64,000 bases of DNA from a virus. The notes beneath the pieces were generated by a model. That model was not told where the DNA came from and did not search any database. It saw nothing but the letters and a program-made list of their open reading frames with translations. Numbering within the stretch: position 1 is the first letter of the stretch; each line of letters opens with the position of its first letter. The position numbers were made by a program, and so were the translations under genes. The stretch lies in the IMG/VR virus record IMGVR_UViG_2974521666_000001. The stretch is one strand, 5' to 3'. Below, piece by piece: positions 2,906-53,788 of this stretch.

Positions 2906-2951
2906 TAGCGGCGCTAGGTAATCTGTTCCTACCGAGACTGAAAGGGATACA

Positions 2952-4849: not shown

Positions 4850-4863
4850 CAATCGGTTCCACT

Positions 4864-4900
4864 GAGGAGGGCCAGTGGCTTCTGGTCACTGGCCTTCCTC
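4864..4900 (+). terminator. 14-bp stem-loop immediately downstream of the major capsid gene (putative terminator or mRNA stabiliser)
   Basis: GAGGAGGGCCAGTG / CACTGGCCTTCCTC form an inverted repeat with a 9-nt loop, starting 15 nt after the capsid stop codon. Confidence 0.45.
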
Positions 4901-4925
4901 AGACCAAATATCGAAGGGGGACAAC

Positions 4926-8375: not shown

Positions 8376-9152
8376 ATGTCCTACCCTGGTGTAGACCCCA
8401 CTGATACCATCACGAAGGAACCTGTTGGGACACAGGAGGTTTCAGTGGGGGAAACCCCTACTCCTGCTGCTCTTTTGGCATCTGCAGCCGGCGACCAAGC
8501 ACCGCAAGATGTTGATGAGGCCGTAAAGGCCGCAGTCAAAGACCTCTTTGCGGTTAACGAAAAAGCCTGGAAGCCTAAGCGGGTCGTCAAGTTCGTTGTC
8601 GATTGCCCGTCGGGGCAGGTGGCGCTGGTGAAGCACCTAGACACACTTGACCTGATCGAACACGATCTGGTTGAGGAACTGGACTTCTTCACCCGCAAGC
8701 TCTTTCCGGCAGACATCGACGCCAGCGGCAATCCTGTAGAGGTGCAAGCCAAGGTGGAGGACAACATCTGGCAGGCCTTGCGTGACCCTGAGAAACGCCG
8801 TCGCTTTCTAGAGGTTACGGGCCGTCTGATGCAAGCAGCGTCGATCAAGCCCAAGATTATTCACGATGGTGTCGTGTTGGTTGAGGACAAGGACAGCGCT
8901 GAAACGGGTAGAAAGACAACCAAGTTCGGCTATGAGCTTGACATGGCAGAACAGCTGGAGCACTTCAAGAGGCCCATCCCACCTCTCAAAGACGGGGAAG
9001 TGTACTCTGGCTATGTCGATTTCGCAGACAGGATGGCCTTCTTCCAAGAGCTGAACAAGCCTTTGGGGATGATCGAACCGTTTCGCGAAGAACAAGCTGC
9101 AGTGCTACAAGATATGGCACGAGGCGAAGGACATGGGGGTGAGACCCAGTGA
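8376..9152 (+). CDS. Tail assembly chaperone (gpG-like)
   Basis: Acidic ~258-aa protein directly upstream of the tape-measure gene, overlapped at its 3' end by a second ORF in another frame. Confidence 0.55.
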   Translation: MSYPGVDPTDTITKEPVGTQEVSVGETPTPAALLASAAGDQAPQDVDEAVKAAVKDLFAVNEKAWKPKRVVKFVVDCPSGQVALVKHLDTLDLIEHDLVEELDFFTRKLFPADIDASGNPVEVQAKVEDNIWQALRDPEKRRRFLEVTGRLMQAASIKPKIIHDGVVLVEDKDSAETGRKTTKFGYELDMAEQLEHFKRPIPPLKDGEVYSGYVDFADRMAFFQELNKPLGMIEPFREEQAAVLQDMARGEGHGGETQ

Positions 9153-31049: not shown

Positions 31050-31091
31050 GCGCTACTGGCAGACACCCTGGTTCGAGTCCAGGGAGCGCAC
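31050..31091 (+). ncRNA. tRNA-like minihelix element 1
   Basis: Stem GCGCT/AGCGC, linker ACTGGCAGACA, T-arm CCCTGG-TTCGAGT-CCAGGG, then AC; starts 10 nt after the upstream stop. Confidence 0.55.
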
Positions 31092-31132
31092 AAAGCTGTA
31101 GCGCCGCTACGGCACAACAGAGAGGATGGGAC

Positions 31133-31390
31133 ATGAGCAACTTCGAGTACCAGGCCGTTGATCCTGCTGCCGCTGCAGTCGGGTTTGGCAAGCCGTTGCT
31201 GAACAACCCCAGGTGGGCCGAGGAAAACTGTGCTGACACACTGCTTTCCGTAAAGGCCGGTGGGGCCGGTGATCTGTACCTCACAGATCAGCAGGGCAAC
31301 GTGTTCGTCAAGTTCGATTCGGGGCATCCGGATCAGGTCCACGCCGCAGCACGGTGGTTGTCGGTGTTCATACAGTCCATCGAGAGCTAA
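31133..31390 (+). CDS. Hypothetical protein (85 aa)
   Basis: AGAGAGGATGGGAC box then ATG; follows element 1 and a short hairpin. Confidence 0.45.
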   Translation: MSNFEYQAVDPAAAAVGFGKPLLNNPRWAEENCADTLLSVKAGGAGDLYLTDQQGNVFVKFDSGHPDQVHAAARWLSVFIQSIES

Positions 31391-31399
31391 AGGCTCTCA

Positions 31400-31441
31400 G
31401 CCGCACTGGCAGACATCAAGGTTCGAGTCCTTGAGCGGCAC
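31400..31441 (+). ncRNA. tRNA-like minihelix element 2
   Basis: GCCGC-ACTGGCAGACAT-CAAGG-TTCGAGT-CCTTG-A-GCGGC-AC; identical to element 6. Confidence 0.6.
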
Positions 31442-31484
31442 AAAGCCATACAGTCCGTATGGCCCTTACGAGAGGATGGAAGCA

Positions 31485-31739
31485 ATGATCTGCGCACACA
31501 TTCACTACGGTCCTTTCAATTACGGACACAAGAAGTTTGACAACGTCAAGCAGGCCATGGACTACTTCGAGAACGAGGTTGCCGGTGTCGACTTTGGCAC
31601 TGGCACTTCCGAGCAGAACATGGATTTGTATGAGTCCGAATGGGATTGCCCGTGCAACGACCACATGAACTTCCATGATTACCCCATGGAGCGATTCGTG
31701 GTTGCGGCCGACGGCACTCCTGTGGCGGTGGCCATCTGA
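31485..31739 (+). CDS. Hypothetical protein (84 aa; C..C and H-rich)
   Basis: GAGAGGATGGAAGCAATG start context. Confidence 0.45.
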   Translation: MICAHIHYGPFNYGHKKFDNVKQAMDYFENEVAGVDFGTGTSEQNMDLYESEWDCPCNDHMNFHDYPMERFVVAADGTPVAVAI

Positions 31740-31930
31740 TGGCCGCTGAAGAGTCTGATCTTCAAACTGTGTACGACTGCTACTCAACAATGTTGGAGGC
31801 AGCAGGGGTGCCGGGTGACGAAATCGCCTGGTACCAAGAGTACATGGCCAACATCTTGGATAACGTTGGCACACAAGAAGATCTGCAAGAGGTAGTCAAA
31901 GCCATGGTGTACCTGAAAGGGAGACAGTAA
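31739..31930 (+). CDS. Hypothetical protein (63 aa)
   Basis: ATG overlaps the upstream TGA stop. Confidence 0.4.
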   Translation: MAAEESDLQTVYDCYSTMLEAAGVPGDEIAWYQEYMANILDNVGTQEDLQEVVKAMVYLKGRQ

Positions 31931-31938
31931 GCTAAATC

Positions 31939-31980
31939 GGGGCAACGGTTTTCGGGGAGGTTCGATTCCTCCCGTCCCAC
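31939..31980 (+). ncRNA. tRNA-like minihelix element 3
   Basis: GGGGC-AACGGTTTTCG-GGGAGG-TTCGATT-CCTCCC-GTCCC-AC. Confidence 0.5.
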
Positions 31981-32017
31981 TAGGCAACCAAAGTGGTTGC
32001 TAGAGAGGATGGGAACA

Positions 32018-32311
32018 ATGGCTACAATCAAGGCGCGCAACTTTCTCTGCCGCAACTGCCACGTGGACGTTAACGTCACCGAGTGTGGCTGCAACGCAGG
32101 CTCTTACTCAATCACCTCTTGGGATTGTGCTCAGTGCGGCATTGAGGTTGTGTCCAGCGGTGGTCGAGACGTTGACTGCTCCAAGTGCGGGGCCTGCTAC
32201 AACGGCTCCGGCCAGCGTCTTCGCAGCGATTGGCGTAGCAATCCATCGGTTTACGACGACAACGTCGGTGACCTGGAGGGCTACGAACTGCAGCACGCCA
32301 ACGACTGGTGA
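32018..32311 (+). CDS. Cys-rich zinc-ribbon-like protein (97 aa)
   Basis: Multiple CxxC pairs (CRNC, CGC, CAQC, CSKCGAC); TAGAGAGGATGGGAACAATG start context. Confidence 0.45.
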   Translation: MATIKARNFLCRNCHVDVNVTECGCNAGSYSITSWDCAQCGIEVVSSGGRDVDCSKCGACYNGSGQRLRSDWRSNPSVYDDNVGDLEGYELQHANDW

Positions 32312-32324
32312 CGTAATCACCGGA

Positions 32325-32366
32325 GGGCCAACGGTTTTCGTAGGGGTTCGATTCCCCTAGGCCCGC
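32325..32366 (+). ncRNA. tRNA-like minihelix element 4
   Basis: GGGCC-AACGGTTTTCG-TAGGGG-TTCGATT-CCCCTA-GGCCC-GC, then hairpin 32368-32390. Confidence 0.5.
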
Positions 32367-32406
32367 TAGGTCGTTCGTACGGGACGACCTCACAGAAAGG
32401 ATGGAA

Positions 32407-32745
32407 ATGGCAGCACGAAAGATGAAGGTTGTCAAGTCGATTCAGGTCGAGAAGCCGACGAGGTTTGCCCGCGTTCGGAAGGGCAAGGGGCAGAACAGCA
32501 CTCGAGAGCTTCAGGCCCGGTCACTGAAGGCGGCGGCAAACCACGGTCAGCCGTGGAGCGACGACGAGGTGGCCCGAATCGTGGCCGGAATACAGAGAGA
32601 CGAAACGTCTTTCGAACTTGCGCTGGCTGTAGGACGAAGCTACTACAGCACCATGAGCGCCAGGTCACATGTGGCGTTTGCTATGCGCCACGCCAACGCC
32701 TTGGAGTTGGCCGTCAAGCAGGCAGCGCGGGCCAAGCACCACTGA
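32407..32745 (+). CDS. Helix-turn-helix DNA-binding protein, putative (sigma-70 region 4 / LuxR-like)
   Basis: PWSDDEVARIVAGIQRDETSFELALAVGRS; AGAAAGGATGGAAATG start context. Confidence 0.4.
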   Translation: MAARKMKVVKSIQVEKPTRFARVRKGKGQNSTRELQARSLKAAANHGQPWSDDEVARIVAGIQRDETSFELALAVGRSYYSTMSARSHVAFAMRHANALELAVKQAARAKHH

Positions 32746-32760
32746 CAACCCAATCGTGTA

Positions 32761-32803
32761 GCCCTGGTAAGGCGTACTGAGGTTCGATTCCTCAGCAGGG
32801 CAC
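32761..32803 (+). ncRNA. tRNA-like minihelix element 5
   Basis: GCCCTG-GTAAGGCGTA-CTGAGG-TTCGATT-CCTCAG-CAGGGC-AC, then hairpin 32809-32824. Confidence 0.55.
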
Positions 32804-32844
32804 TTTGCCCGGCAAACCAGCCGGCAATTAGAGAGGATGGGAAA

Positions 32845-33012
32845 ATGGTGAATGTGTACAAGATTGACGGTTTGCAGCTGCAGGCGATCAGGGGTTATCT
32901 CAAGAACCCTGATACTCATACCCTTCGGATCATGGTTGATGAGGAGGGTGTGAAGGTCAAGTTCAATCAAGGGCCTTGGTCCCCACCACTCGGGGAACTT
33001 GAAAGGAACTGA
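32845..33012 (+). CDS. Hypothetical small protein (55 aa)
   Basis: TAGAGAGGATGGGAAAATG start context; not in the ORF track because it is under 60 aa. Confidence 0.4.
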   Translation: MVNVYKIDGLQLQAIRGYLKNPDTHTLRIMVDEEGVKVKFNQGPWSPPLGELERN

Positions 33013-33013
33013 A

Positions 33014-33238
33014 ATGGCCGATATCCTATTGGCACATGGTGAAAGCACTTCAGGCACCAAACACACCCTGGAGATCGATCCAATCTACGGAAGTCATGAC
33101 TCAATTGATTGGCTGAAGTGGACTATCATGGGTCCCAACGGGAAACGGCACGCAAGTGTCAAGCTGACCTTGGCTGATGCCGAGGGCATTGCAAACCACC
33201 TGTTGGACATCGTAGAAGAGGCCCGTCGTAACGCATGA
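33014..33238 (+). CDS. Hypothetical protein (74 aa)
   Basis: ATG 1 nt after the upstream stop, after AAAGGAA. Confidence 0.4.
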   Translation: MADILLAHGESTSGTKHTLEIDPIYGSHDSIDWLKWTIMGPNGKRHASVKLTLADAEGIANHLLDIVEEARRNA

Positions 33239-33246
33239 CAGGGCGA

Positions 33247-33288
33247 GCCGCACTGGCAGACATCAAGGTTCGAGTCCTTGAGCGGCAC
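33247..33288 (+). ncRNA. tRNA-like minihelix element 6 (exact 42-nt copy of element 2)
   Basis: GCCGCACTGGCAGACATCAAGGTTCGAGTCCTTGAGCGGCAC, then hairpin 33294-33312. Confidence 0.6.
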
Positions 33289-33327
33289 TAGGACAGTGGC
33301 ACGGGGCCACTGCCTTAACGAAAGAGG

Positions 33328-34263
33328 ATGGAAATGACCACCATTGAGAACAGTGTGAATGCAGTTGAGCTGATCGATCTGTCGGCAGCTTGCGAGAAGG
33401 CTGGAATCGGTGGGACAGTTCGCAATACGGAAGTTGGCACCGGTACGCTGTACGTGGTGGCCAAGCTTCCTGACGGGAACTGGGCTTTGGACTACGAAAC
33501 TGATGTGATCGACATTGCTGCTTTTCAGCAGGAGGGTTGGCTCGTTGTGTCCACGGCCACAGACGGCGAGGAGACAGAGCAGGATACCAAACCTGCTACG
33601 TACCAAGACTTCTTCGAAGGTTTGCCCACCTGGTCATACTTCTGGGACGGCCGAAACATTGACTGCCAGTACATCTTTACTGGCTGGAAGCAAAACAAGT
33701 ACGGCGACAACGTTCCTGCGTATGTCCACCACCGGTACATGACAACCAGCTTGATGTCCATCTTGGACCTGGATCACGAATGCCAGTGGGAGGCATTCAC
33801 AGTCAACGGTACGCCCAAGGAGGCCAGTCGCGATTTGCGGCAGGCAATCCGGACGATGTACTCGGCCTTGAAAGAGGCAGAGTCGTACAAGCAACTGCAT
33901 AAGGAAGAAGGTGAGCGGCTGGAGGCAGTCAAGCGTGATTTCCGAAAGCTGAACGAACACATCAATTCCTACGCTGAAGAAACCCACATGTGCGGCGACT
34001 ATGAGCGCCGTATCTACGGCTGGAACGAGACCTTCGAGGTCATGGAGCTCGAGGGCCGTGTTCGCGATTACAATGTGCCCGTACGGGTCCCTGGAGTGTT
34101 CGGGGACACTGAGGTCTGGGTTTCGGGTATCAAGGCCCGTACTCCAGAAGAGGCACGGGAACAGGTGCAGCGCATGACCGCTCAGGAAGTGCTGAACAAC
34201 CTGTATCAATCCGGTTACAGCATGCCGGAGTGGACCGTCGGCGATAGTACTCCGAGGGCCTAG
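33328..34263 (+). CDS. Hypothetical protein (311 aa)
   Basis: AAAGAGGATGGAAATG start context. Confidence 0.45.
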   Translation: MEMTTIENSVNAVELIDLSAACEKAGIGGTVRNTEVGTGTLYVVAKLPDGNWALDYETDVIDIAAFQQEGWLVVSTATDGEETEQDTKPATYQDFFEGLPTWSYFWDGRNIDCQYIFTGWKQNKYGDNVPAYVHHRYMTTSLMSILDLDHECQWEAFTVNGTPKEASRDLRQAIRTMYSALKEAESYKQLHKEEGERLEAVKRDFRKLNEHINSYAEETHMCGDYERRIYGWNETFEVMELEGRVRDYNVPVRVPGVFGDTEVWVSGIKARTPEEAREQVQRMTAQEVLNNLYQSGYSMPEWTVGDSTPRA

Positions 34264-34278
34264 CCCCAAAGCAGGGCA

Positions 34279-34320
34279 GGGTGACTGGCAGACATCAGGG
34301 TTCGAGTCCCTGACACCCAC
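34279..34320 (+). ncRNA. tRNA-like minihelix element 7
   Basis: GGGTG-ACTGGCAGACAT-CAGGG-TTCGAGT-CCCTG-A-CACCC-AC, then hairpin 34324-34342. Confidence 0.6.
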
Positions 34321-34363
34321 AAAGCCGTAGGCGTTCTACGGCCTAGCAAGAGAGGATGGAACA

Positions 34364-34597
34364 ATGCCGCTACCAAGGGGGTTCAAGTTCATACGCTGCC
34401 CCGAATGCAAACGCAAAGGTGTGTCATGTAGATTCAGCGGGCGAACCGGGGAGGACTACTGGCAATGCCGCTACTGCAGCTGGTACTGCTATGCAGGAGG
34501 GGAGGACCGGATTGACGTTGAGCGTCGACGAGCACTTGCTGCAGCCAATCCCGGTGAGCCTATATGGGTTACAGCACTGGACGATGACACACTGTAA
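34364..34597 (+). CDS. Zinc-ribbon-like small protein (77 aa)
   Basis: CPEC ... CRYCSWYC; AGAGAGGATGGAACAATG start context. Confidence 0.45.
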   Translation: MPLPRGFKFIRCPECKRKGVSCRFSGRTGEDYWQCRYCSWYCYAGGEDRIDVERRRALAAANPGEPIWVTALDDDTL

Positions 34598-34603
34598 CGG
34601 CAA

Positions 34604-34645
34604 GCCTGACTGGAAGGCACCGACGTTCAAGCCGTCGGCTGGCGC
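34604..34645 (+). ncRNA. Degenerate member of the minihelix family (T-arm-like hairpin CCGACG-TTCAAGC-CGTCGG preceded by a GACTGGAAGGCA linker)
   Basis: The linker resembles GACTGGCAGACA of the other elements, but no acceptor-like pairing is found. Confidence 0.25.
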
Positions 34646-34685
34646 GGGGTGAGCCACTATGGCTTACTACAAGAAAGGGGATGGA

Positions 34686-35051
34686 ATGAAGCACGTTATC
34701 GCTATTTCAGGCAATGACCTTGCGTACCTTCGCAAGGCAGCCTTGTCGGCGTTTCAAGAGGCCGGTCAGATTGGCGTACTACGCATTTACATTACCGATG
34801 ACGGTAAGCTCATGTTTGGAGCACGGGGTCACGTAACCAAAGTGATTGGTAGGCCCATTAAGGCTTCCGATGAAGAGCGCGAAATGGGTTTGAGTGCCCC
34901 AAGCGGAAATCCGTACGCCAACATTGACGACGATGAAGATGCGCAAGATGCTGCTGAGGCAGTAGGCCTCTCGCTTGAAGAACGTGTTGCACACCTGGAG
35001 GAACTGGTCAAGGGCGAGAACATCGTTGTGATCAACCTCTCAAAGTCCTAG
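34686..35051 (+). CDS. Hypothetical protein (121 aa)
   Basis: AAAGGGGATGGAATG start context. Confidence 0.4.
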   Translation: MKHVIAISGNDLAYLRKAALSAFQEAGQIGVLRIYITDDGKLMFGARGHVTKVIGRPIKASDEEREMGLSAPSGNPYANIDDDEDAQDAAEAVGLSLEERVAHLEELVKGENIVVINLSKS

Positions 35052-35063
35052 CAGCGCTAGGCA

Positions 35064-35108
35064 GCCGGCCACGGTTGGTTAATAGTGGTTCGAGTCCACT
35101 ACCGGCAC
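35064..35108 (+). ncRNA. tRNA-like minihelix element 8
   Basis: GCCGG-CCACGGTTGGTTAA-TAGTGG-TTCGAGT-CCACTA-CCGGC-AC, then hairpin 35111-35129. Confidence 0.55.
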
Positions 35109-35153
35109 GAAGGCAACAACCCGTTGCCTTACATCAAGATTCGAGGATGGAAC

Positions 35154-35555
35154 ATGAAACGTAATGTGAAAGAAGTCGTGGTTGCATTTCTTGTGACCAT
35201 GGGCCTGTTCTTCGCTCTCGCAGCAATCCACAACGCCGCCGTAACCAATGTGGCCAAGGCAGATCCAGGCGTTGGCTGCGAGACAATTCGTTGGGGTTTC
35301 CTAGGAAGCCAAAGGCGCACCATCTGCGACGGGCCGCGCAGGCCTGACGGCAGCTGGGAGCGTTTGCGTCTGATCTGGACGCCAGCGGGTTACGTGCCAC
35401 GCTACACCTACTGCGGTAGCTACTCATGCTCTTCCAGCGGTGGCTACTACCGGGAGGAGACGCTTCAGGGCAAGGAAACGTATGTGGTGTTTGACCACAA
35501 CGTGCTGCCCGATGAGCCGGGTTGGCTGCCACCGGGAACGGACATTATCCGATGA
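35154..35555 (+). CDS. Secreted or exported protein with an N-terminal signal/transmembrane segment and several Cys (133 aa)
   Basis: MKRNVKEVVVAFLVTMGLFFALAAIHNAAVTNVAKADPGVG; TCGAGGATGGAACATG start context. Confidence 0.45.
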   Translation: MKRNVKEVVVAFLVTMGLFFALAAIHNAAVTNVAKADPGVGCETIRWGFLGSQRRTICDGPRRPDGSWERLRLIWTPAGYVPRYTYCGSYSCSSSGGYYREETLQGKETYVVFDHNVLPDEPGWLPPGTDIIR

Positions 35556-35734
35556 GAGACTGCAGCGAGCATGGAACCAATAGCAACGTATGCGATTTCG
35601 CCGGCTGCTTTGGCCCGGCAAAACCGTACCGTTGCATCTGCGGTGACTTCAAAACGGATTCCCCGAGAGTGCTAGACGTGCATATCCTCTGGGCGAATAA
35701 GTTCAGAGCCAATGTGGAGCACGGCTGGCCGTAG
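35552..35734 (+). CDS. Cys-rich small protein (60 aa)
   Basis: ATG overlaps the upstream stop (ATGA). Confidence 0.35.
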   Translation: MRDCSEHGTNSNVCDFAGCFGPAKPYRCICGDFKTDSPRVLDVHILWANKFRANVEHGWP

Positions 35735-35742
35735 CCACAAGA

Positions 35743-35784
35743 GCCGCAATGGCATACACCCAGGTTCGAGTCCTGGGGCGGCAC
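35743..35784 (+). ncRNA. tRNA-like minihelix element 9
   Basis: GCCGC-AATGGCATACA-CCCAGG-TTCGAGT-CCTGGG-GCGGC-AC. Confidence 0.55.
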
Positions 35785-35828
35785 GAGTCCTGAGCAATCG
35801 GCTTGGGGCACTATGAAAGAGGATGGAA

Positions 35829-36050
35829 ATGCGAGTAGCAGATGCAGTGAGGAAGACCTCTGGCATTCATCGGCTCAAGGTGGGCGAGATGTTCACCGAC
35901 GCAGATGGTGATTGGGAGGTGACCAGAGAGCCTGTGGTTGATGGCGATTGGGTCGTCGTGTACCTGAGGCCCGTGCCCTTTCACGAGGGCCAGCGCGCTA
36001 GGGCCTACCGATATCCCTTGTCAACTCAGGTGAAGATGCTGCGTAAGTAA
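35829..36050 (+). CDS. Hypothetical protein (73 aa)
   Basis: AAAGAGGATGGAAATG start context. Confidence 0.45.
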   Translation: MRVADAVRKTSGIHRLKVGEMFTDADGDWEVTREPVVDGDWVVVYLRPVPFHEGQRARAYRYPLSTQVKMLRK

Positions 36051-36094
36051 AGCACTCTGCTGTGGCTACGGGGATTGTGCCAAGTAGAGAGATA

Positions 36095-36161
36095 CCCTGC
36101 AACGGTTTTGGCGTGTTCGAGGGTTACACACCAACAGAGGTTCGATTCCTCTGGCAGGGAC
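36095..36161 (+). ncRNA. tRNA-like minihelix element 10 (long linker)
   Basis: CCCTGC, then a 34-nt linker beginning AACGGTTTTGG, then CAGAGG-TTCGATT-CCTCTG-GCAGGG-AC. Confidence 0.45.
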
Positions 36162-36202
36162 GACGGTGGGCCACCAGGTCTACCGAACGAAAGGGGATGG
36201 AA

Positions 36203-36619
36203 ATGCGTACGTTTACCTTTGGGACCCAGTATGTCCCAGAGACAAAGGCAGTCCTGAAGTGGGGCAAGTACGCCGACGGCAGCACTGCACTACGTGTTGT
36301 GTCGGAGTACGGTGAGCCTCTGGCTACGGCCACAGTCTGCCTGCGCAACTACAACCTTCAGCCGGGTAAAGGCAATGTCTTCATCTACGGGGACTACAGC
36401 GAACATGTCGGAGTGTTCGAGGCCCTGCGGAAGGCCGGGATTGTCGGTGACCCTGTGAACCGAATTCCCATGGGAGGCTTTGGCGCTTTCGCGTACGAGG
36501 CTCCCCTGCTGTGGAGCGAGCACGAGCCAACCTGTGAGGGTATGGCAGACGTGGACTACCACACCCAAGTTGATGCCATGCTCGAACGAGTGGCACAGCA
36601 AGACAACAAGTCCCAGTAG
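36203..36619 (+). CDS. Hypothetical protein (138 aa)
   Basis: AAAGGGGATGGAAATG start context. Confidence 0.45.
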   Translation: MRTFTFGTQYVPETKAVLKWGKYADGSTALRVVSEYGEPLATATVCLRNYNLQPGKGNVFIYGDYSEHVGVFEALRKAGIVGDPVNRIPMGGFGAFAYEAPLLWSEHEPTCEGMADVDYHTQVDAMLERVAQQDNKSQ

Positions 36620-36627
36620 ACTGGGCA

Positions 36628-36669
36628 GCCCGAAAGGCATACACGCTGGTTCGAGTCCAGCGCGGGCAC
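36628..36669 (+). ncRNA. tRNA-like minihelix element 11
   Basis: GCCCG-AAAGGCATACA-CGCTGG-TTCGAGT-CCAGCG-CGGGC-AC, then hairpin 36673-36685. Confidence 0.55.
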
Positions 36670-36709
36670 GAGCGCCATAGTGGCGTATCAAGAAAGGGGA
36701 TGGACTGAG

Positions 36710-36916
36710 TTGCATAGAGAAACGGAATTCGTGCTCGCCCGCGAGCTCAGCGATGGCAGCCTACCTCACATGCCACCGGCAGATGAGCTGCCACATCGTG
36801 GCCGAATCACAAGGATTCTCAACGACTCTGGGGTGTTGACAATCGAGTGTGAGGACGGTATGCTCAGCCGAGGGATGAACGCCCCGGTTGAACGGTACAA
36901 GAGGGAGGCTCAGTGA
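36710..36916 (+). CDS. Hypothetical protein (68 aa)
   Basis: AAAGGGGATGGACTGAGTTG start context (TTG start). Confidence 0.35.
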   Translation: MHRETEFVLARELSDGSLPHMPPADELPHRGRITRILNDSGVLTIECEDGMLSRGMNAPVERYKREAQ

Positions 36917-37050
36917 ACAAACTGCGGAAGTTGTTGCGAGCCTACAGAGTTTCGCAGCACAGACGCCGGCTGAATGACGAAGCCCATATCGCTTGGGCCA
37001 GATCACTACTGGCAGAACGTGAACGACCGGTAGACTAGTACAGCACAGGA

Positions 37051-37092
37051 GTCCGACTGGCAGACATCAGGGTTCGAGTCCCTGACGGACAC
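37051..37092 (+). ncRNA. tRNA-like minihelix element 12
   Basis: GTCCG-ACTGGCAGACAT-CAGGG-TTCGAGT-CCCTG-A-CGGAC-AC, then 7-bp hairpin 37095-37120. Confidence 0.6.
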
Positions 37093-37148
37093 GACTTGGA
37101 GCCACGAGGGAGACTCCAAGCACCACAACAGAAAGAGGATGGGAAACA

Positions 37149-38345
37149 ATGGGCGCAGAAACCATGGAGTGGTACAACAACTTCTGCCTGATCGGGCACA
37201 CCAATCAGCGTGGAAAGAGTTGGCACTATATGGAGTCCATGCAGGGAGAGGAGCCGAATCATTACCCCGAGGGCATCCCGTATGACGATGTTGTACGGCG
37301 GCTATTCAATTGGAAGCCAATGCTTACCCGTACGGCAAACATGATTCCATGTGAGTTGCTACGGGATGAGGCAGGACAGCCCTTGACCGACGACCAGGGA
37401 CGCCGTCGCTACGAACCTGAGCCGTCAGTATGGGTTCAGCGTGTGGACAGCAACGGCAACCCAGTGTTCCACGAGGGCCGTCCGGTCAACGTTCCCATGA
37501 AACTGGTAGAGGTCCATGACAAACGGGGCCTGGTCCGTAGCGACAACTACCTGGAGCTGGGGCACCCCGGCAAGAACTACAAGATCCACGACTACGAGGA
37601 GTGGCTCTTGCAGTTGCTATCCAACGTGATTGGGGACACTCTCGACATTTGGTCAGCAATCCTGTTGCGCAATGGCGCTCAGGCCTGTGTCCAGGTGGCT
37701 CTTCCTGAGACGGCTCACGACAGCACAACTGGAATGGACTTTGTTCCATACGTCCACTGCTATACGAGCCTAGACAGTAGTCTGGCTACCACTTTCGCTG
37801 GCCAAACGCTGTTGATCGTGTGCGACAACACGATGACTGCGGCCAACGCAAGAGCAGCCAAGGCAGGGCGGCAGTACAAGGCACGTCACACGTCCGGAAG
37901 CCTTGAGACCCACAAGATCTCTGAGGTCCGGCAAGCCCTGTCGATTATTCACCAAACCGCAGACAGCTCTATGGAATTCTTCCACAAGCTGGCTGCCATT
38001 GAAGTGCCCAACAAGAAGTGGATTGAGGTGCTAGACATCATCATTCCACCGGGTGATCCCAACAAGGACAGCACCAGGACCGTTCGTGGTCGTGAGTCCA
38101 AGAGGGAACACCTGAACAGCGTGTACCAAAGTGACCCTATGGCGAATACCTGGAAAGGTACTGGCCTTGGGGTGGTACAGGCAATCAACACCTACGCAAC
38201 CCACTACGCGCCACTGCGCGGCCGCTCCCGTGTTCAGGGCAACGCTGCCAAGCTGGTGGACGGTGAGTTTGCCAAGGTGGACAGCAAGAGCGTGCAGGCC
38301 CTTGCTCAAGTGATGGATATGCCAGAGTTGTTGACTACCAACTAG
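37149..38345 (+). CDS. Conserved phage/plasmid protein (398 aa), possibly DUF932-like
   Basis: GAAAGAGGATGGGAAACAATG start context. The DUF932 assignment is from recall only. Confidence 0.4.
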   Translation: MGAETMEWYNNFCLIGHTNQRGKSWHYMESMQGEEPNHYPEGIPYDDVVRRLFNWKPMLTRTANMIPCELLRDEAGQPLTDDQGRRRYEPEPSVWVQRVDSNGNPVFHEGRPVNVPMKLVEVHDKRGLVRSDNYLELGHPGKNYKIHDYEEWLLQLLSNVIGDTLDIWSAILLRNGAQACVQVALPETAHDSTTGMDFVPYVHCYTSLDSSLATTFAGQTLLIVCDNTMTAANARAAKAGRQYKARHTSGSLETHKISEVRQALSIIHQTADSSMEFFHKLAAIEVPNKKWIEVLDIIIPPGDPNKDSTRTVRGRESKREHLNSVYQSDPMANTWKGTGLGVVQAINTYATHYAPLRGRSRVQGNAAKLVDGEFAKVDSKSVQALAQVMDMPELLTTN

Positions 38346-38353
38346 TCTGGTGC

Positions 38354-38395
38354 GGGTGACTGGCAGCCACCGGGGTTCAAGGCCCCGGCACCCAC
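38354..38395 (+). ncRNA. tRNA-like minihelix element 13
   Basis: GGGTG-ACTGGCAGCCA-CCGGGG-TTCAAGG-CCCCGG-CACCC-AC. Confidence 0.5.
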
Positions 38396-38470
38396 TTACT
38401 CGTGATGGATAACAGCCTGGGTTACTAGCCTGAGCATCTCAGTGTTAGTCCTACGGCTATCTCATTTTTC

Positions 38471-38499
38471 GTGCCAAGCAGGCTCTCGTGTGTTATGAT
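38471..38499 (+). promoter_or_regulatory. Candidate sigma-A-type promoter with an extended -10 (TGT-TATGAT) and a weak -35 (GTGCCA, 17-bp spacer)
   Basis: Only a motif match, located in the 170-bp gap upstream of gene 38566. Confidence 0.3.
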
Positions 38500-42988: not shown

Positions 42989-44151
42989 TCCGGTCCTCTA
43001 GGGCAGCTACCGAATTGGGGATTAAGTAGCCCCACTACCATCCTCTGGTGAAGAAGATTGCACGGCCTCCCCGTACAGCCACGCAATGTCTCCCCAGTTC
43101 GGTAGCTCTAAAGGGTAGAGAGACATCGACACTCAGCACGTATTGAGTAGCCCCTCGGCAAGCTGAAAACGTCTGTCTCTCTACTCCTTAGGGCAGGACC
43201 TGCCCTCCAGTGACCGGGGTACGCACCAGCGAAGAGTCAAGTACAGTCCCTCCAAGCCTGGAAGACCCAGTAGCACAGAGCCTCTGCCCCGGTACACGGG
43301 AATTGTTCTTACACAGTTGAATATACTTCGAGCCTGATCGATAGGCAGTAGCAATGCTGCTGAAAGGCCGGTTGATCCCCGGTCGCCTAGTAATCCTAGG
43401 TAACTCAGGCAATCCAGTACCTTCGCCCATCTGAACGGTGGTGGGACGCAGGCAAGCAGAGCGGGCCAGGCCGATACGGTGAGGCCAGTCGTGTACGCAG
43501 CGACTCAAACGCTATAAGCTGCAAGCCTGATGGTTGGTACATGGGAGGGATACATAGTGCGAGTAGGCATACAAGTGCGGTATCCATGGAGGCCCCAAGG
43601 CGTGGTTGGCGAATCACGTAGGAGCTGAAGAGCACAAGTAGCGGGCACGTGAAAGTGCGATGGCGTGGTGCATTCTGTGGCTCAAAAGGCGACGGAACAC
43701 CTGGGGCAGCACGTCGTCAGATCGTATGGCCTGGTCTCCCTAAGGGACCACCAAAGCGCTCAGGCAAGAGCACTACCATTGGGAGGTAGCAACGGTGTAA
43801 AAGCCGTTTCCGGTTCGACTCCGGCAAAGCAAAAGTCTGTCCCCGCTAGCAACGAAAGTACCCTAATCCCTAGGGCTTACGCCAACTAGGGCACCGGAAG
43901 GCTCGCAAGGCCGACTGGTGTTGCTAGACAAAGTAGTGCAGGTAGGGGGAGGCCACCCCTGACCGAATCGAAACGTCAGCGAGTAGTTCGCTAGTGTAGG
44001 TAGTGGTTCCGCCAATCAAACGGGACCGGGTACGGTGGCTGCAAGTGGGAGCTTGCGGACAAGGAACTAACACATAAGGTTCTGAAAGGCCACTGGGATT
44101 AGGGTCAAGTCTACGCCCTTTCCACCCCTAACAACAAGAGGATGGTAACTC
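42989..44151 (+). other. 1.16-kb non-coding, lower-GC, highly structured region (candidate large structured non-coding RNA or replication/packaging element)
   Basis: No plausible ORF on either strand; many local hairpins (GGGCAGGACCTGCCC, CCTAGTAATCCTAGG, GGTCTCCCTAAGGGACC and others). Confidence 0.4.
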
Positions 44152-52776: not shown

Positions 52777-53739
52777 ATGTGGGCAACTCTTTGGTTGGCC
52801 TTCGTCCTGCTCGTGACGATTGGCTTTGCCGTATGGTTCCTGTTCTTCCCGATCACCAAAGAACGGGAAGTGTCCTACGGACGCTATGAGAAACGTACGT
52901 TCCGTAACCCAGCAGCTCTGATTGGCCTTGGCACCTCAGCTTTGGTGTTCCTGATCAGTTTGGTGTTGGCTTGCACCACGATTGTGGGCACGCGACAGGT
53001 TGGCATTGTGACACAGTGGAATCGGCCGACAGGCGAAACCCTTAGCAACGGATTGCATTTCATTCTGCCGTGGACCTCAGTGCATGAGATGGACGCCGCC
53101 ATTCAGAACGACGTGTACAACGGCGACCACAGAATCCAAGTGCGCCTAGGGAACAACAGCACTGCCATGGCAGACGTGAATGTGCGCTGGGAAATCAAGC
53201 CGGATCAGGCCGACGAGCTGTTCCAGCAGTACAAGACGTTCGACAACGTGCGGTCCAATCTTGTAGAGCGCAATCTGCGTACTGTGCTCAACGAGGCGTT
53301 CATGGCGTTCGACCCTCTGGCTGGTGATCCCAAGCCACCTGTTGGGCCGGACGGCAAGCCCACGGGGCCTGCTCCAAAGCCAGTGACACTCAGCTCGGTG
53401 ACGGCAGATGCTCTTGCACAGTTGCAAGCCAAGAGTGATCAGGTCACCATCCTGGACCTGAGCGTGCCGGTGATCGACTACGACGACAACACAGAGCAGA
53501 AGATCAACGCCATCAACGCTGCTCGTGCCGACACCACCAGGGCCGAGCAAGAGGCCAAGACGGCAGAGCAGAAACGTCTTGCGGCAGAGGAATTGGCCAA
53601 ACAGCCAATCCCAGACCTACGCATTGCCATTGCCGCGTGTGTCAACAAGATGGCTGAGACAGGCCAGACGCTCAACTGTTTCCCGTTGGGTAACAACGTT
53701 GTACCAACACTGCAGGTTCCAAACCCGGCTGCTCCGTAA
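52777..53739 (+). CDS. Band-7 (SPFH / stomatin-prohibitin-HflKC) domain membrane protein
   Basis: Two N-terminal transmembrane helices, then GIVTQWNRPTGETLSNGLHFILPW (start of an SPFH domain) and a coiled-coil C-terminus. Confidence 0.5.
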   Translation: MWATLWLAFVLLVTIGFAVWFLFFPITKEREVSYGRYEKRTFRNPAALIGLGTSALVFLISLVLACTTIVGTRQVGIVTQWNRPTGETLSNGLHFILPWTSVHEMDAAIQNDVYNGDHRIQVRLGNNSTAMADVNVRWEIKPDQADELFQQYKTFDNVRSNLVERNLRTVLNEAFMAFDPLAGDPKPPVGPDGKPTGPAPKPVTLSSVTADALAQLQAKSDQVTILDLSVPVIDYDDNTEQKINAINAARADTTRAEQEAKTAEQKRLAAEELAKQPIPDLRIAIAACVNKMAETGQTLNCFPLGNNVVPTLQVPNPAAP

Positions 53740-53746
53740 GCCGGTG

Positions 53747-53788
53747 GGGTGAGCGGCACACACCAAGGTTCGAGTCCTTGGCACCCAC
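53747..53788 (+). ncRNA. tRNA-like minihelix element 14 (in the replication module)
   Basis: GGGTG-AGCGGCACACA-CCAAGG-TTCGAGT-CCTTGG-CACCC-AC; 8 nt after the upstream stop. Confidence 0.5.

What the first reader, a model, noticed from the sequence alone, without database searches (positions are those of the whole stretch)
31050..38395. Family of at least 14 tRNA-like minihelix elements (acceptor-like stem plus T-arm, no D or anticodon arm) punctuating an array of small genes
Each element is about 42 nt. It has a 5-6 bp stem whose 5' strand is followed by a short linker, then a canonical tRNA T-arm (5-6 bp stem with a 7-nt loop TTCGAGT, TTCGATT or TTCAAGG, giving GGTTCGAGTCC-like strings), then the 3' strand of the first stem, then a conserved AC. 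That is a tRNA 'top half' (coaxial acceptor and T stems), the minimal substrate geometry recognised by RNase P, RNase Z and the CCA-adding enzyme. Each starts 8-16 nt after the stop codon of the upstream gene, except element 10 at 45 nt. Stems differ between copies but always stay complementary. Elements 7 and 12 share 30 identical internal nucleotides, yet have fully different stems (GGGTG/CACCC versus GTCCG/CGGAC), which is five compensatory base pairs. The other stems are GCGCT/AGCGC, GCCGC/GCGGC, GGGGC/GTCCC, GGGCC/GGCCC, GCCCTG/CAGGGC, GCCGG/CCGGC, GCCCG/CGGGC and CCCTGC/GCAGGG. This covariation indicates selection for the folded RNA (or single-stranded DNA) structure rather than for sequence. 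Linker subfamilies (ACTGGCAGACAT x5, AACGGTTTTCG x3, A(A/T)GGCATACA x2) point to repeated duplication. A 15th copy sits at 53747 in the replication module, and a degenerate one at about 34604. I do not know of a described phage system like this. The closest analogy is the tRNA-like 't-elements' of plant mitochondria and the mitochondrial tRNA-punctuation model, in which tRNA-shaped structures direct endonucleolytic processing of polycistronic mRNA.
Basis: seen in the sequence. Interest (0 to 1): 0.92.

Follow-up and report, generated by a model that had tools for sequence, protein, structure and literature searches.

The report
tRNA-like minihelices punctuating phage early genes
A 42-nucleotide RNA element that imitates the top half and elbow of a tRNA sits between nearly all the small early genes of this mycobacteriophage and recurs in hundreds of other phages; it is in no RNA database I could search, and it most likely makes the host's tRNA-trimming enzymes cut long phage transcripts into pieces.

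Summary
The window is Mycobacterium phage Send513 (cluster R). It holds 15 same-strand copies: 14 at 31050-38395 and one at 53747.

Each copy has a 5-bp acceptor-like stem, an 11-nt linker, a 6-bp T stem with a canonical T loop, the 3' strand, then R-C. ARAGORN and Rfam 15 do not recognise them.

A covariance model built on 11 copies finds over 260 further copies. These are in Streptomyces (R4-like), Mycobacterium, Gordonia and Microbacterium phages, and in IMG/VR contigs that include low-GC Mu-like phages.

All 11 helix pairs covary. Two more Watson-Crick pairs also covary: one closes an NGGCA mini D-loop, and one joins the linker to T-loop nucleotide 7. So the element mimics the tRNA elbow, not only a minihelix.

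The ends mimic local tRNA genes. Position -1 almost never pairs with the discriminator, C74 is invariant, and C75 is avoided.

Hairpins abut both sides. Copies follow stop codons by about 10 nt, follow gene orientation, and also form non-coding tandem arrays.

Best explanation (inferred, untested): host RNase P, a 3' tRNA-end nuclease and the CCA-adding enzyme excise them, punctuating early polycistronic RNA. I found no prior description.

The parts
31050..31091 (+). minihelix 1 (GCGCU/AGCGC; linker ACUGGCAGACA; T loop UUCGAGU; tail AC), 9 nt after the gp45 stop
   Evidence: (62.1 bits)
31400..31441 (+). minihelix 2 (GCCGC/GCGGC), 9 nt after the gp46 stop
   Evidence: (63.8 bits)
31939..31980 (+). 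minihelix 3 (GGGGC/GUCCC, one G.U; AACGGUUUUCG/UUCGAUU subfamily), 8 nt after the gp48 stop. In phage Rope the G.U is A-U.
32325..32366 (+). minihelix 4 (GGGCC/GGCCC; tail GC), 13 nt after the gp49 stop
32761..32803 (+). minihelix 5, 6+6 bp variant (GCCCUG/CAGGGC; 10-nt linker), 15 nt after the gp50 stop
   Evidence: (20.3 bits, not in the training set)
33247..33288 (+). minihelix 6 (identical to minihelix 2), 8 nt after the gp52 stop
34279..34320 (+). minihelix 7 (GGGUG/CACCC), 15 nt after the gp53 stop. Weiss13 carries a compensatory G-C to A-U change at 34298/34310.
34604..34645 (+). minihelix 8 (GCCUG/CUGGC with one U.U; both tertiary pairs kept), 6 nt after the stop of ORF 34364-34597. 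The relatives have a perfect stem.
   Evidence: (33.5 bits, E = 1e-5, not in the training set)
35064..35108 (+). minihelix 9 (GCCGG/CCGGC; 14-nt linker), 12 nt after the gp55 stop. It overlaps the annotated start of gp56.
   Evidence: (23.4 bits, not in the training set)
35743..35784 (+). minihelix 10 (GCCGC/GCGGC; AAUGGCAUACA), 8 nt after the gp57 stop
Phage Rope has a different hairpin in the same place.
   Evidence: T arm only; z = -3.5
36628..36669 (+). minihelix 12 (GCCCG/CGGGC), 8 nt after the gp59 stop
37051..37092 (+). minihelix 13 (GUCCG/CGGAC; its internal 30 nt are identical to minihelix 7), 12 nt after the stop of ORF 36913-37038
38354..38395 (+). minihelix 14 (GGGUG/CACCC; linker ...GCCA with T loop UUCAAGG keeps the linker-to-loop pair as C-G), 8 nt after the gp61 stop. 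It is the last of the array.
53747..53788 (+). minihelix 15, isolated copy 7-8 nt after the gp78 stop. It overlaps the annotated start of gp79.
   Evidence: (60.6 bits)
31095..31113 (+). downstream hairpin of unit 1 (starts 3 nt after C74), followed by the GAGAGGAUGG Shine-Dalgarno sequence and ATG at 31133
31445..31463 (+). downstream hairpin of unit 2
31983..32001 (+). downstream hairpin of unit 3
32368..32390 (+). downstream hairpin of unit 4
32805..32827 (+). downstream hairpin of unit 5
33290..33315 (+). downstream hairpin of unit 6
34324..34342 (+). downstream hairpin of unit 7
34648..34668 (+). downstream hairpin of unit 8
35110..35130 (+). downstream hairpin of unit 9
35787..35809 (+). 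downstream hairpin of unit 10
36164..36185 (+). downstream hairpin of unit 11. Phage Rope has a different sequence here but still a hairpin.
36670..36689 (+). downstream hairpin of unit 12
37093..37121 (+). downstream hairpin of unit 13
31382..31398 (+). upstream hairpin of unit 2. It encloses the gp46 stop codon and ends 1 nt before G1.
32305..32323 (+). upstream hairpin of unit 4 (encloses the gp49 stop)
33221..33244 (+). upstream hairpin of unit 6 (encloses the gp52 stop)
35045..35062 (+). upstream hairpin of unit 9 (encloses the gp55 stop)
36610..36626 (+). upstream hairpin of unit 12 (encloses the gp59 stop)
53725..53744 (+). upstream hairpin of unit 15 (encloses the gp78 stop)
38404..38469 (+). 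long hairpin plus a run of five T after the last minihelix; probable terminator closing the array (approximate limits)
   Evidence: (fold of 38313-38469)

Best explanation
**What it is.** Each element is a transcribed RNA module that folds into a miniature tRNA 'top half with elbow'.
- A 5-bp acceptor-like stem stacks on a 6-bp T stem, giving 11 layers (12 in a few copies).
- The T loop is canonical (U54 U55 C56 R57 A58).
- The 11-nt linker replaces the D and anticodon arms. One Watson-Crick pair closes an NGGCA loop, whose GG matches tRNA G18-G19. The next linker base pairs with T-loop nucleotide 7.
- The 3' end is R73-C74 followed by a non-C, as in local tRNA genes.

**Proposed mechanism (inferred, not shown).**
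1. Early phage genes are transcribed as long polycistronic RNAs.
2. Host tRNA-maturation enzymes treat every module as a pre-tRNA. RNase P cuts at its 5' edge.
3. A 3' tRNA-end nuclease cuts after the discriminator or after C74, and the CCA-adding enzyme completes the end.
4. The transcript is thereby cut into mono- or dicistronic mRNAs. Their new 3' ends carry the hairpin that encloses the upstream stop codon. Their new 5' ends carry the hairpin that starts 0-3 nt after C74.
5. A roughly 42-nt minihelix RNA is released at each site.

**What is shown and what is inferred.**
- Shown: the fold (by covariation), the tRNA-end mimicry, the positions, the orientation, the flanking hairpins and the wide distribution.
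- Inferred: cleavage, the enzymes involved and the consequences for mRNA stability.
For: **Fold.**
- All 11 helix pairs covary in three nested sets: window copies, 70 distinct copies and an independent IMG/VR set of 122 distinct copies (99.4% of cells paired, 441 double-change cells against 121 +/- 8 in shuffles).
- Two extra pairs were found by mutual information and confirmed. Linker nucleotides 2 and 8 give CG 70, AU 27, GC 20, UA 4. Linker nucleotide 9 with T-loop nucleotide 7 gives AU 84, GC 21, CG 8, UA 7.
- GG and the T-loop invariants are conserved at 97-100%.

**Strand and level.**
- There are 27 G.U cells against 9 non-standard cells.
- All copies in a locus share one strand.
- In Gordonia phage Aleemily, copies on both strands follow their divergent gene blocks.

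**tRNA-end mimicry.**
- Position -1 and the discriminator form a standard pair in only 7 of 216 copies. T at -1 occurs 4 times, against about 35 expected from flank composition.
- C74 is invariant. Position 75 is C in 11 of 216 copies, against 28% C in the flanks.
- All 26 bona fide tRNA genes of mycobacteriophage Dandelion encode C74, and only 3 encode full CCA. The phiC31 tRNA-Thr gene is the same.

**Precedent in the same host.** The tRNA-like module of M. smegmatis YrlA is cut by RNase P in vivo and in vitro, and has CA added to an encoded C (PMC4201824).

**Enzyme logic.** RNase P, RNase Z and the CCA-adding enzyme all read the T-arm/acceptor stack from the elbow (PMC4919913).

**Position.**
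- The median distance from stop codon to element is 10 nt and the minimum is 5. The start codon lies about 30-50 nt downstream.
- Every intergenic gap of 80 nt or more in the 30.3-38.4 kb array holds one copy.

**Flanking hairpins.**
- A downstream hairpin is present in 81% of 216 units and starts 0-3 nt after C74 in 75%.
- An upstream hairpin ends 0-3 nt before G1 in 44%.
- Both are more stable than shuffles (p = 5e-25 and 3e-9).

**Not tied to translation.** The same module separates non-coding units in tandem arrays.

**Host-machinery dependence.**
- The family occurs in unrelated phages of four actinobacterial genera and in low-GC Mu-like phages.
- No phage RNA enzyme is encoded in the array.
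Against: - No transcript-end, cleavage or expression data exist for any phage that carries the element. I found none in the literature library.
- Most copies stack 11 bp, not the 12 bp of tRNA. A rigid RNase P ruler would then cut one nucleotide upstream of G1.
- Position -1 is A or C and almost never U, although U(-1) is the nucleotide bacterial RNase P is generally said to prefer (from memory).
- The upstream hairpin leaves only 0-3 unpaired leader nucleotides, which is short for RNase P protein contacts.
- An invariant C74 is not what B. subtilis-type RNase Z prefers (from memory).
- Elements are not strictly co-inherited with orthologous genes between Send513 and MrMiyagi. Their presence at any one junction is therefore dispensable.
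- Non-coding tandem arrays could equally mean that the released minihelix, not the cut, is the selected product.
Confidence: 0.55

Rival explanations
1. **The released minihelix is itself the product.** The modules are excised as above, but what is selected is the resulting pool of CCA-tailed acceptor/elbow mimics. There would be 14 per early transcript, and more from non-coding arrays. These act as decoys or competitive inhibitors. Possible targets are host tRNA-directed enzymes or tRNA-end-targeting defence toxins, such as MenT/AbiEii-type nucleotidyltransferases, CapRel/PhRel-type pyrophosphokinases, the CCA-adding enzyme, or RNase P itself for host shut-off.
For: - Tandem arrays of 4-7 minihelices with no ORFs between them occur in several IMG/VR contigs.
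- Elbow and acceptor-end features are conserved more tightly than a mere cleavage signal might need.
- The copies sit in the earliest transcribed region and in high copy number.
- Element presence is uncoupled from particular genes.
Against: - No target is identified.
- In the arrays the conserved (GGCNN)n spacers could be the cargo and the minihelices only the punctuation.
- Acceptor stems vary freely, so no aminoacyl-tRNA-synthetase-like or toxin-specific identity set is conserved beyond G1-C72, R73 and C74.
- This is compatible with, not exclusive of, the processing model.
Confidence: 0.15
2. **A cis-acting structural element that works without being cut.** It would be a compact, nuclease-resistant fold. 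It could protect the downstream cistron's 5' UTR or the upstream cistron's 3' end from exonucleases. It could block Rho loading on untranslated spacers. Or it could enhance initiation on the next gene, for example by docking the tRNA-like elbow on the ribosome.
For: - The position upstream of start codons is constant: about 30-50 nt in actinophages and 17-26 nt upstream of the transposase gene in low-GC Mu-like phages.
- The whole 95-nt spacer is structured.
- A minimum gap of 5-6 nt after stop codons keeps the fold clear of the terminating ribosome.
Against: - Any stable hairpin would serve as a barrier. That does not explain selection for T-loop invariants, GG, the tertiary pair, the unpaired -1/73 and the C74/not-C75 rule.
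- The element also occurs where there is no downstream ORF.
Confidence: 0.15
3. **Factor-independent terminators or attenuators without U-tracts.** The minihelix, the neighbouring hairpins, or both would be 'I-shaped' actinobacterial terminators that grade transcription along the early operon.
For: - GC-rich hairpins lie directly after stop codons.
- U-tract-less terminators have been claimed for actinobacteria and for the phiC31 early region (from memory).
Against: - The consensus scan calls no terminator at any element.
- phiC31 has no copy of the element.
- tRNA-specific features are unexplained.
- Fourteen terminators in series would silence the distal genes. A conventional hairpin plus five T follows only the last copy.
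Confidence: 0.05
4. **A DNA-level element.** Possibilities are protein-binding sites, recombination or cassette boundaries (attC-like single-stranded folds, mosaic 'linker' sequences), or decayed tRNA genes and att-site remnants.
For: - The layout is an array of small genes each followed by a structured repeat, which resembles integron cassettes.
- Some Send513/Rope replacement boundaries abut elements.
- T-arm sequences are common att cores (one search lists only such papers).
Against: - The covarying tertiary pair and the tRNA-type T loop with GG are RNA-fold features.
- G.U is tolerated but A.C is not.
- Orientation tracks transcription in divergent operons.
- The uniform 42-nt architecture in over 260 copies is not decay.
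- No integrase or integron features lie next to the arrays.
- The R4 stoperator is a different motif.
- None is found in 72,556 plasmids.
Confidence: 0.03

Closest known systems
Plant mitochondrial t-elements and the animal mitochondrial tRNA-punctuation model (from memory: Forner et al. 2007; Ojala et al. 1981)
   Same: tRNA-shaped structures embedded in polycistronic transcripts, next to the ends of coding regions. They are proposed or shown to define mRNA ends through RNase P and RNase Z.
   Different: - Here the host is a bacterium and the genome a phage.
- The structure is a uniform 42-nt module without an anticodon arm, not a full tRNA or an idiosyncratic t-element.
- Cleavage is untested.
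mascRNA/menRNA from MALAT1 and NEAT1, and gammaherpesvirus-68 tRNA-miRNA (TMER) transcripts (from memory)
   Same: A tRNA-like module inside a longer transcript is excised by RNase P and RNase Z and receives CCA. This creates the mature end of the flanking RNA. Rfam's mascRNA model is the only one that weakly aligns end to end with the phage elements.
   Different: - mascRNA is a full cloverleaf and eukaryotic.
- The score is far below the family threshold (20.5 against 42.5 bits).
- There is no homology.
tRNA-like module of bacterial Y RNA YrlA, including M. smegmatis YrlA (PMC4201824)
   Same: - It is a non-tRNA with a T arm, a D-arm mimic and an acceptor-like stem.
- In the host species of Send513 it is cut by RNase P.
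- An encoded C is extended with CA.
   Different: - YrlA is a stand-alone non-coding RNA with a Ro60/Rsr-binding stem, encoded next to rsr.
- The phage element has no such module and no Rfam match.
- The phage element is repeated within mRNAs.
tmRNA tRNA-like domain
   Same: Acceptor stem plus T arm, with a D-loop analogue and no anticodon arm.
   Different: - The tmRNA domain is formed by the 5' and 3' ends of a 350-nt RNA.
- It has a 7-bp acceptor stem with G3:U70 and encoded alanine identity.
- ARAGORN finds no tmRNA here.
RNase III processing sites between phage T7 early genes (from memory)
   Same: - The logic is the same: host endonuclease sites between early cistrons.
- Processed mRNAs end in protective hairpins.
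   Different: - The enzyme and the structure differ. T7 uses long irregular duplexes for RNase III; here the structure is a tRNA mimic.
- The copy number here is much higher.
RNase P-dependent maturation of the P1/P7 C4 and P4 CI antisense RNAs, and RNase P cuts in E. coli operon mRNAs (from memory)
   Same: Bacterial RNase P acts on non-tRNA phage or operon RNAs.
   Different: Those are single, idiosyncratic sites with weak tRNA resemblance. They are not a conserved repeated family.
Actinophage intergenic repeats: stoperators (L5, R4) and the cluster K start-associated sequences
   Same: Short conserved repeats in the small intergenic gaps of actinophage early regions. R4-type stoperator-like motifs lie next to minihelices in phiScoe10.
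   Different: Those are 13-17 bp DNA sequence motifs bound by repressor or tied to start codons (R4 motif TGTGCAAGTGTNGC). They do not covary structurally.

Membership tests
canonical tRNA gene | Cloverleaf with a D arm and an anticodon arm; detectable by a tRNA finder | tested here: not met
   - ARAGORN finds 0 genes in the window and none at the CM hits in other loci.
- Only 10-14 nt lie between the acceptor 5' strand and the T stem.
canonical tRNA gene | T arm: G53-C61 closing pair and loop U54 U55 C56 R57 A58 N N | tested here: met
   - Column counts on 150 copies: G 149, T 150, T 149, C 150, G 145/A 5, A 147, C61 150.
- The locus-seeding pattern fixed some of these columns for one copy per locus.
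- The window set and alignment A3 show the same.
canonical tRNA gene | 7-bp acceptor stem stacked on a 5-bp T stem (12 layers) | tested here: not met
   5+6 = 11 bp in most copies; 6+6 = 12 bp in a minority.
canonical tRNA gene | D-loop G18-G19 available to contact T-loop 55/56 (the elbow) | tested here: inconclusive
   - An invariant GG sits in a 5-nt loop closed by a covarying pair. The next base pairs with T-loop nucleotide 7.
- The GG-to-T-loop contact itself cannot be seen from sequence.
canonical tRNA gene | Gene 3' end as in local tRNA genes: N73-C74, usually without C75-A76; position -1 not paired with 73 | tested here: met
   - Elements: C74 in 216 of 216, C75 in 11 of 216, a -1/73 standard pair in 7 of 216.
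- Dandelion tRNA genes: C74 in 26 of 26, full CCA in 3.
- phiC31 tRNA-Thr is the same.
tRNA-like RNA-processing elements (t-elements, mascRNA type) | tRNA-like fold embedded in a longer transcript next to the ends of functional RNA units | tested here: met
   Positions relative to stops and starts, co-orientation with genes, and use between non-coding units. Transcription itself is inferred.
tRNA-like RNA-processing elements (t-elements, mascRNA type) | Endonucleolytic cleavage at its borders by RNase P and RNase Z, and CCA addition | not testable with these tools
   Needs end-mapping or in vitro assays. The only precedent is M. smegmatis YrlA.
Rfam mascRNA-menRNA (RF01684) | Score at or above the gathering threshold | tested here: not met
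   20.5 and 18.0 bits against a threshold of 42.5.
tmRNA / YrlA | Tag reading frame and pseudoknots (tmRNA), or a Rsr-binding stem next to rsr (YrlA); a match to the Rfam or ARAGORN model | tested here: not met
   - No tmRNA is found by ARAGORN.
- Only a 17-nt T-arm match to beta_tmRNA, at 13.7 bits.
- No YrlA hit.
intrinsic terminator | GC-rich hairpin followed by a U-tract | tested here: not met
   - No terminator-like site is called at any element.
- The tails are AC followed by A, G or T, with U depleted two positions later (8 of 216).
actinophage stoperator | A 13-17 bp asymmetric conserved DNA sequence (R4: TGTGCAAGTGTNGC; L5: GGTGGCTGTCAAG) | tested here: not met
   - The motifs differ.
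- Conservation of the element is structural, with covariation.
integron attC-type cassette site | An imperfect palindrome folded as single-stranded DNA with a conserved core, served by an integron integrase | tested here: not met
   - No integrase is annotated beside the arrays.
- The folded strand is always the sense strand of the flanking genes, even in divergent blocks.
- The tRNA-type tertiary covariation points to an RNA fold.

The most novel reading that the evidence does not exclude
Phages make the minihelices as effectors, not only as punctuation. From the first transcripts they release many CCA-tailed acceptor/elbow mimics, and in some phages dedicated non-coding arrays with (GGCNN)n spacers. 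These would titrate host factors that read the tRNA top half. Candidate targets are RNase P or the CCA-adding enzyme (host shut-off), or defence toxins that modify tRNA 3' ends (MenT/AbiEii nucleotidyltransferases, CapRel/PhRel-type pyrophosphokinases). That would be an RNA-decoy anti-defence strategy spread across actinophages and low-GC transposable phages.
Probability: 0.13. Interest if true: 0.92.

Novelty: new variant of a known kind. Interest (0 to 1): 0.82.

Why it matters
- **A new way for phages to organise gene expression.** If the inferred mechanism holds, many phages of Actinobacteria, and apparently Mu-like phages of low-GC hosts, use the mitochondrial solution of tRNA punctuation to organise early gene expression. 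They do it with a purpose-built 42-nt mimic rather than real tRNAs. That would be a new post-transcriptional layer in phage biology and a natural minimal substrate for RNase P, RNase Z and CCA-adding enzymes.
- **A compact modular RNA part.** It could be used to split synthetic operons in Mycobacterium and Streptomyces.
- **A well-supported new structured-RNA family, whatever the mechanism.**
  - It has more than 260 copies and 13 covarying pairs, including a tertiary contact.
  - It is absent from Rfam.
  - It would be a good target for structure determination.
- **Better annotation.** It corrects gene starts in cluster R genomes and could improve actinophage annotation.
- **A possible decoy.** The non-coding tandem arrays leave open that the released minihelix is a decoy aimed at tRNA-directed host enzymes or defence toxins.

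Tried and rejected
- **Rfam.** The gathering and E-value scans find no family at the elements. The only matches are sub-threshold mascRNA alignments and a T-arm fragment of tmRNA.
- **ARAGORN.** No tRNA or tmRNA.
- **Mycobacterial RNase E site idea** (cut 5' of C, with U two positions later). Rejected: U is depleted at that position, 8 of 216.
- **Link to the GOLLD RNA in the same window.** No GOLLD is found in the element-bearing loci of Lika, Konstantine, MrMiyagi, phiScoe10 or four IMG/VR contigs.
- **A phage-encoded RNA enzyme in the array.** The array proteins are DUF932, a CDGP domain, an HTH protein and unknowns.
- **phiC31**, whose early region is said to have U-tract-less terminators: no copies.
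- **Plasmids.** No blastn match.
- **Genome-contig scan.**
The matches were not minihelices. I take most to be real tRNA T arms, although ARAGORN found tRNAs in only 2 of the 15 actinobacterial loci I checked.
  - Only 2 of the first 100 loci held true elements.
  - Presence in host chromosomes or prophages therefore remains unmeasured.
- **First viral pattern.** It had the wrong spacing (5 N instead of 4). It found only 43-nt variants, which still led to the family.
- **Orthology test against MrMiyagi.** Orthologous genes do not carry the same element subfamily, so compensatory change at strictly orthologous sites could only be shown within cluster R.
- **Literature.**
  - Smith et al. 2013 on R4-like phages is not held.
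  - The supplements of the 10,006-candidate viral RNA survey are not held either, so the motif could be an unnamed entry there.

Full report
**Source.** The window is Mycobacterium phage Send513 (cluster R, genus Papyrusvirus). Window position equals record position minus 7547. The flagged region lies just after the lysis genes and a 585-nt gap. It is a run of small rightward genes of unknown function that ends before the replication genes. The GenBank record annotates nothing but coding sequences there.

**Observation.**
- The common layout is a 5-bp stem, an 11-nt linker, a 6-bp stem closed by G-C, the 7-nt loop TTCGAGT, TTCGATT or TTCAAGG, the 3' strand of the first stem with no spacer, then AC (GC in two copies).
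- I count 13 regular copies between 31050 and 38395, plus the copy at 34604 and one at 53747.
- The 34604 copy differs from a regular one by a single T.T mismatch. The three cluster R relatives I aligned have a perfect pair there.
- Variants are 32761 (6+6 bp), 35064 (14-nt linker) and 36095 (an extra hairpin of about 25 nt between linker and T arm). Phage Rope has a different hairpin at that last position.
- 14 of the 15 copies fold as proposed. Single-sequence z-scores are modest, so folding energy is not the argument.
- One correction: elements 7 and 12 share their internal 30 nt but differ at three stem pairs, not five.

**More than chance.**
- On the window copies alone, all cells pair and 8 of 11 pairs change on both sides. 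Shuffled and register-shifted controls fall to 35-54% paired.
- A covariance model built from 11 copies was run over the whole window with filters off. It returns the 11, then the four untrained copies, then nothing better than 14 bits. All hits are on the + strand.
- ARAGORN finds no tRNA. Rfam 15 finds only a GOLLD RNA elsewhere in the window. With permissive thresholds the elements get only sub-threshold mascRNA alignments.

**A large family.**
- The model finds the same 42-43 nt module in many phages:

| Phage | Copies found |
|---|---|
| Streptomyces phage phiScoe10 | at least 10 in 5.3 kb |
| Streptomyces phage Lika | 8 |
| Mycobacterium phage MrMiyagi (Fowlmouthvirus) | 9-10 |
| Mycobacterium phage Konstantine (cluster H) | at least 7 |
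| Gordonia phage Aleemily | 10 |
| Microbacterium phage Lupine | 1 |

- A 42-nt consensus matches 142 isolate phage records over at least 80% of its length, mostly R4-like Streptomyces phages.
- Two pattern scans of IMG/VR gave 82 and 189 model hits. There are up to 15 per locus, always on one strand within a locus.
- phiC31 has none, and 72,556 plasmids have no blastn match.
- The family is not limited to high-GC phages. Contigs of 29-45% GC carry good copies with a U1-A72 first pair. These sit 17-26 nt upstream of a Mu-like transposase gene.

**Structure.**
- On 70 distinct copies, and on an independent set of 122 distinct IMG/VR copies, all helix pairs covary and 98.6-99.4% of cells pair.
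- A mutual-information scan revealed two further Watson-Crick pairs, neither fixed by my search patterns.
  - Linker nucleotides 2 and 8 close a 5-nt loop NGGCA (CG 70, AU 27, GC 20, UA 4).
  - Linker nucleotide 9 pairs with the seventh T-loop nucleotide (AU 84, GC 21, CG 8, UA 7). Only the GGUUUUCG/GAUU subfamily has U.U there.
- The loop GG is invariant, and the T loop keeps the tRNA invariants.
- So the linker is a D-loop surrogate, and the element mimics the tRNA elbow as well as the acceptor/T stack.
- G.U is tolerated 27 times, against 9 non-standard cells. The folded strand is therefore the sense strand.
- In Aleemily, copies on both strands follow their divergent gene blocks. This points to RNA, not DNA.

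**Ends.**
- In 216 distinct copies the base before G1 is A or C. It forms a standard pair with the discriminator in only 7 cases.
- The discriminator is A or G, the next base is always C, and the base after that is C in only 11 cases.
- Real tRNA genes in this host range look the same. All 26 tRNA genes of mycobacteriophage Dandelion encode C74, and only 3 encode CCA. The phiC31 tRNA-Thr gene also ends N73-C74-A.
- In M. smegmatis, the tRNA-like module of YrlA is cut by RNase P. Its encoded C is extended by CA in vivo (PMC4201824).

**Context.**
- Elements start a median of 10 nt (minimum 5) after a same-strand stop codon. They end about 30-50 nt before the next start.
- In Send513 every gap of 80 nt or more between 30.3 and 38.4 kb holds exactly one copy. 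Overlapping or tightly coupled gene pairs have none.
- Hairpins abut both sides.
  - One starts 0-3 nt after C74 in 75% of units.
  - One ends 0-3 nt before G1 in 44% of units, often enclosing the stop codon.
  - Both are more stable than shuffles (p = 5e-25 and 3e-9).
- After the downstream hairpin comes a strong Shine-Dalgarno sequence.
- The last copy of the array is followed by a long hairpin with a run of five T.
- In Lika and Konstantine the copies lie in the equivalent early regions.
- In several IMG/VR contigs the module recurs every 110-150 nt with no ORFs between. The spacers there are made of GGCNN pentamer repeats. The module is therefore not tied to translation.

**Mechanism.**
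- The simplest account is that host tRNA-maturation enzymes treat each module as a pre-tRNA. These enzymes read the acceptor/T stack from the elbow (PMC4919913).
- Excision would cut early polycistronic RNA into units whose new ends carry the flanking hairpins, and would release a minihelix. This step is inferred.
- Points against:
  - the stack is 11 bp, not 12;
  - U is absent at -1;
  - the leader is very short;
  - there are no transcript data at all.
- The main rival is that the released minihelices are themselves effectors, for example decoys. The non-coding arrays favour this. It can coexist with processing.
- A purely structural cis role, terminators, and DNA-level roles each explain less (see rival explanations).

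**Comparison and novelty.**
- The closest functional analogues are mitochondrial tRNA punctuation and plant t-elements, mascRNA, and T7 RNase III sites.
- The closest structural analogues are the tmRNA tRNA-like domain and YrlA.
- The element fails the defining tests for each of these families (see membership tests). It is absent from Rfam.
- Ten literature searches found no description. Two relevant sources were not readable.
- I rate it a new variant of a known kind: tRNA mimicry used as RNA punctuation, new in form and in setting.

**Caveats.**
- The alignments were fitted to the model, which favours its helices. The two extra pairs and the flank statistics were not part of the model.
- The IMG/VR loci were seeded with patterns that fix GGCA, CA and GGTTCGAG in at least one copy per locus.
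- Host assignments for the IMG/VR contigs are unknown.
- E-values from the shortened calibration are rough.

Noticed in passing
window 43658-44118 (+), inside the 1.16-kb non-coding gap 42989-44151 between gp68 and gp69: A GOLLD RNA (Rfam RF02032) scores 180 bits against a threshold of 150, with a full-length model match. It contains its own T-arm-like CCGGTTCGACTCCGG at 43810-43824. Send513 encodes no tRNA. No GOLLD was found in the element-bearing loci of Lika, Konstantine, MrMiyagi or phiScoe10.
   Followed up: partly
window 34491-34652 (gp54), 34659 (gp55), 35085 (gp56), 35823 (gp58), 36062 (gp59), 53749 (gp79): - Several annotated Send513 gene starts, and one whole ORF, overlap a minihelix or its downstream hairpin.
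- Starts placed after the conserved GGATGG Shine-Dalgarno motif fit better: ORF 34364-34597, then starts at 34686, 35154, 35829, 36203 and GTG 53821.
- Rope and Nilo already annotate some of these positions.
   Followed up: partly
L256 1600-2990 (-), L235 10000-11370 (-), L027 5100-5890 (-), L023 12410-12750 (+), L164 6610-7010 (-): IMG/VR contigs carry tandem non-coding arrays of minihelices every 110-150 nt. The spacers consist of 10-17 GGCNN pentamer repeats, for example ggcatggcaaggcgaggcagggctaggc. This periodicity recalls binding sites for ring-shaped RNA-binding proteins such as TRAP. No such repeats occur in the window.
   Followed up: partly
L251 870-911 and 6116-6157; L026 6064-6106 and 6914-6955; L257 1723-1764; L236; L220; L184; L166; L250; L183: - Good copies of the element (45-58 bits) occur in viral contigs of only 29-45% GC.
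- They have a U1-A72 first pair (TCCCG...CGGGA-AC) and A-rich flanks.
- In five of these contigs (L251, L026, L236, L257, L220) the copy sits 17-26 nt upstream of a 670-730 aa ORF. The three I scanned (L257, L251, L026) match phrog_310, a Mu-like transposase.
- The family therefore reaches beyond actinophages.
   Followed up: partly
window 36095-36161; L034 (Rope) orthologous site; L031 (MrMiyagi) about 8740-8820: A long variant has an extra hairpin between the GG linker and the T arm, like a variable or anticodon arm. The hairpin sequence is replaced wholesale between Send513 and Rope, but it stays a hairpin. MrMiyagi has a similar variant.
   Followed up: partly
window: 8-20 nt upstream of the start codons at 31133, 31485, 32018, 32407, 32845, 33334, 34364, 34686, 35154, 35829, 36203, 36710 and 37149; also L031: A conserved purine-rich motif, (A/G)A(A/G)AGGATGG(A/G)A, precedes the start codons of the array genes in both Send513 and the unrelated MrMiyagi. 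It is longer than a plain Shine-Dalgarno sequence and contains an ATG that has misled some start calls.
   Followed up: no
window 38404-38499: After the last minihelix there is a long hairpin followed by TTTTT (38465-38469). Then comes a promoter-like site with an extended -10 (38471-38499) ahead of gp62. This probably marks the boundary between two transcription units.
   Followed up: no
L111 448-489 and 1427-1468 (contig JBKECH010000048.1, binned as Bacteroidales); L081 1871-1912 (Actinomycetota MAG): These were the only true elements among the first 100 of the 120 genome contigs pattern hits I scanned. The 6-kb 'Bacteroidales' contig has 45% GC and two U1/C1-type copies, so it may be a phage contig.
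   Followed up: no
L032 (phiScoe10) 769-5200: In the R4-like Streptomyces phage, stoperator-like motifs (TGTGACAGTGTGAGTA and relatives) lie directly before or after several minihelices. They sometimes take the place of the flanking hairpin.
   Followed up: no
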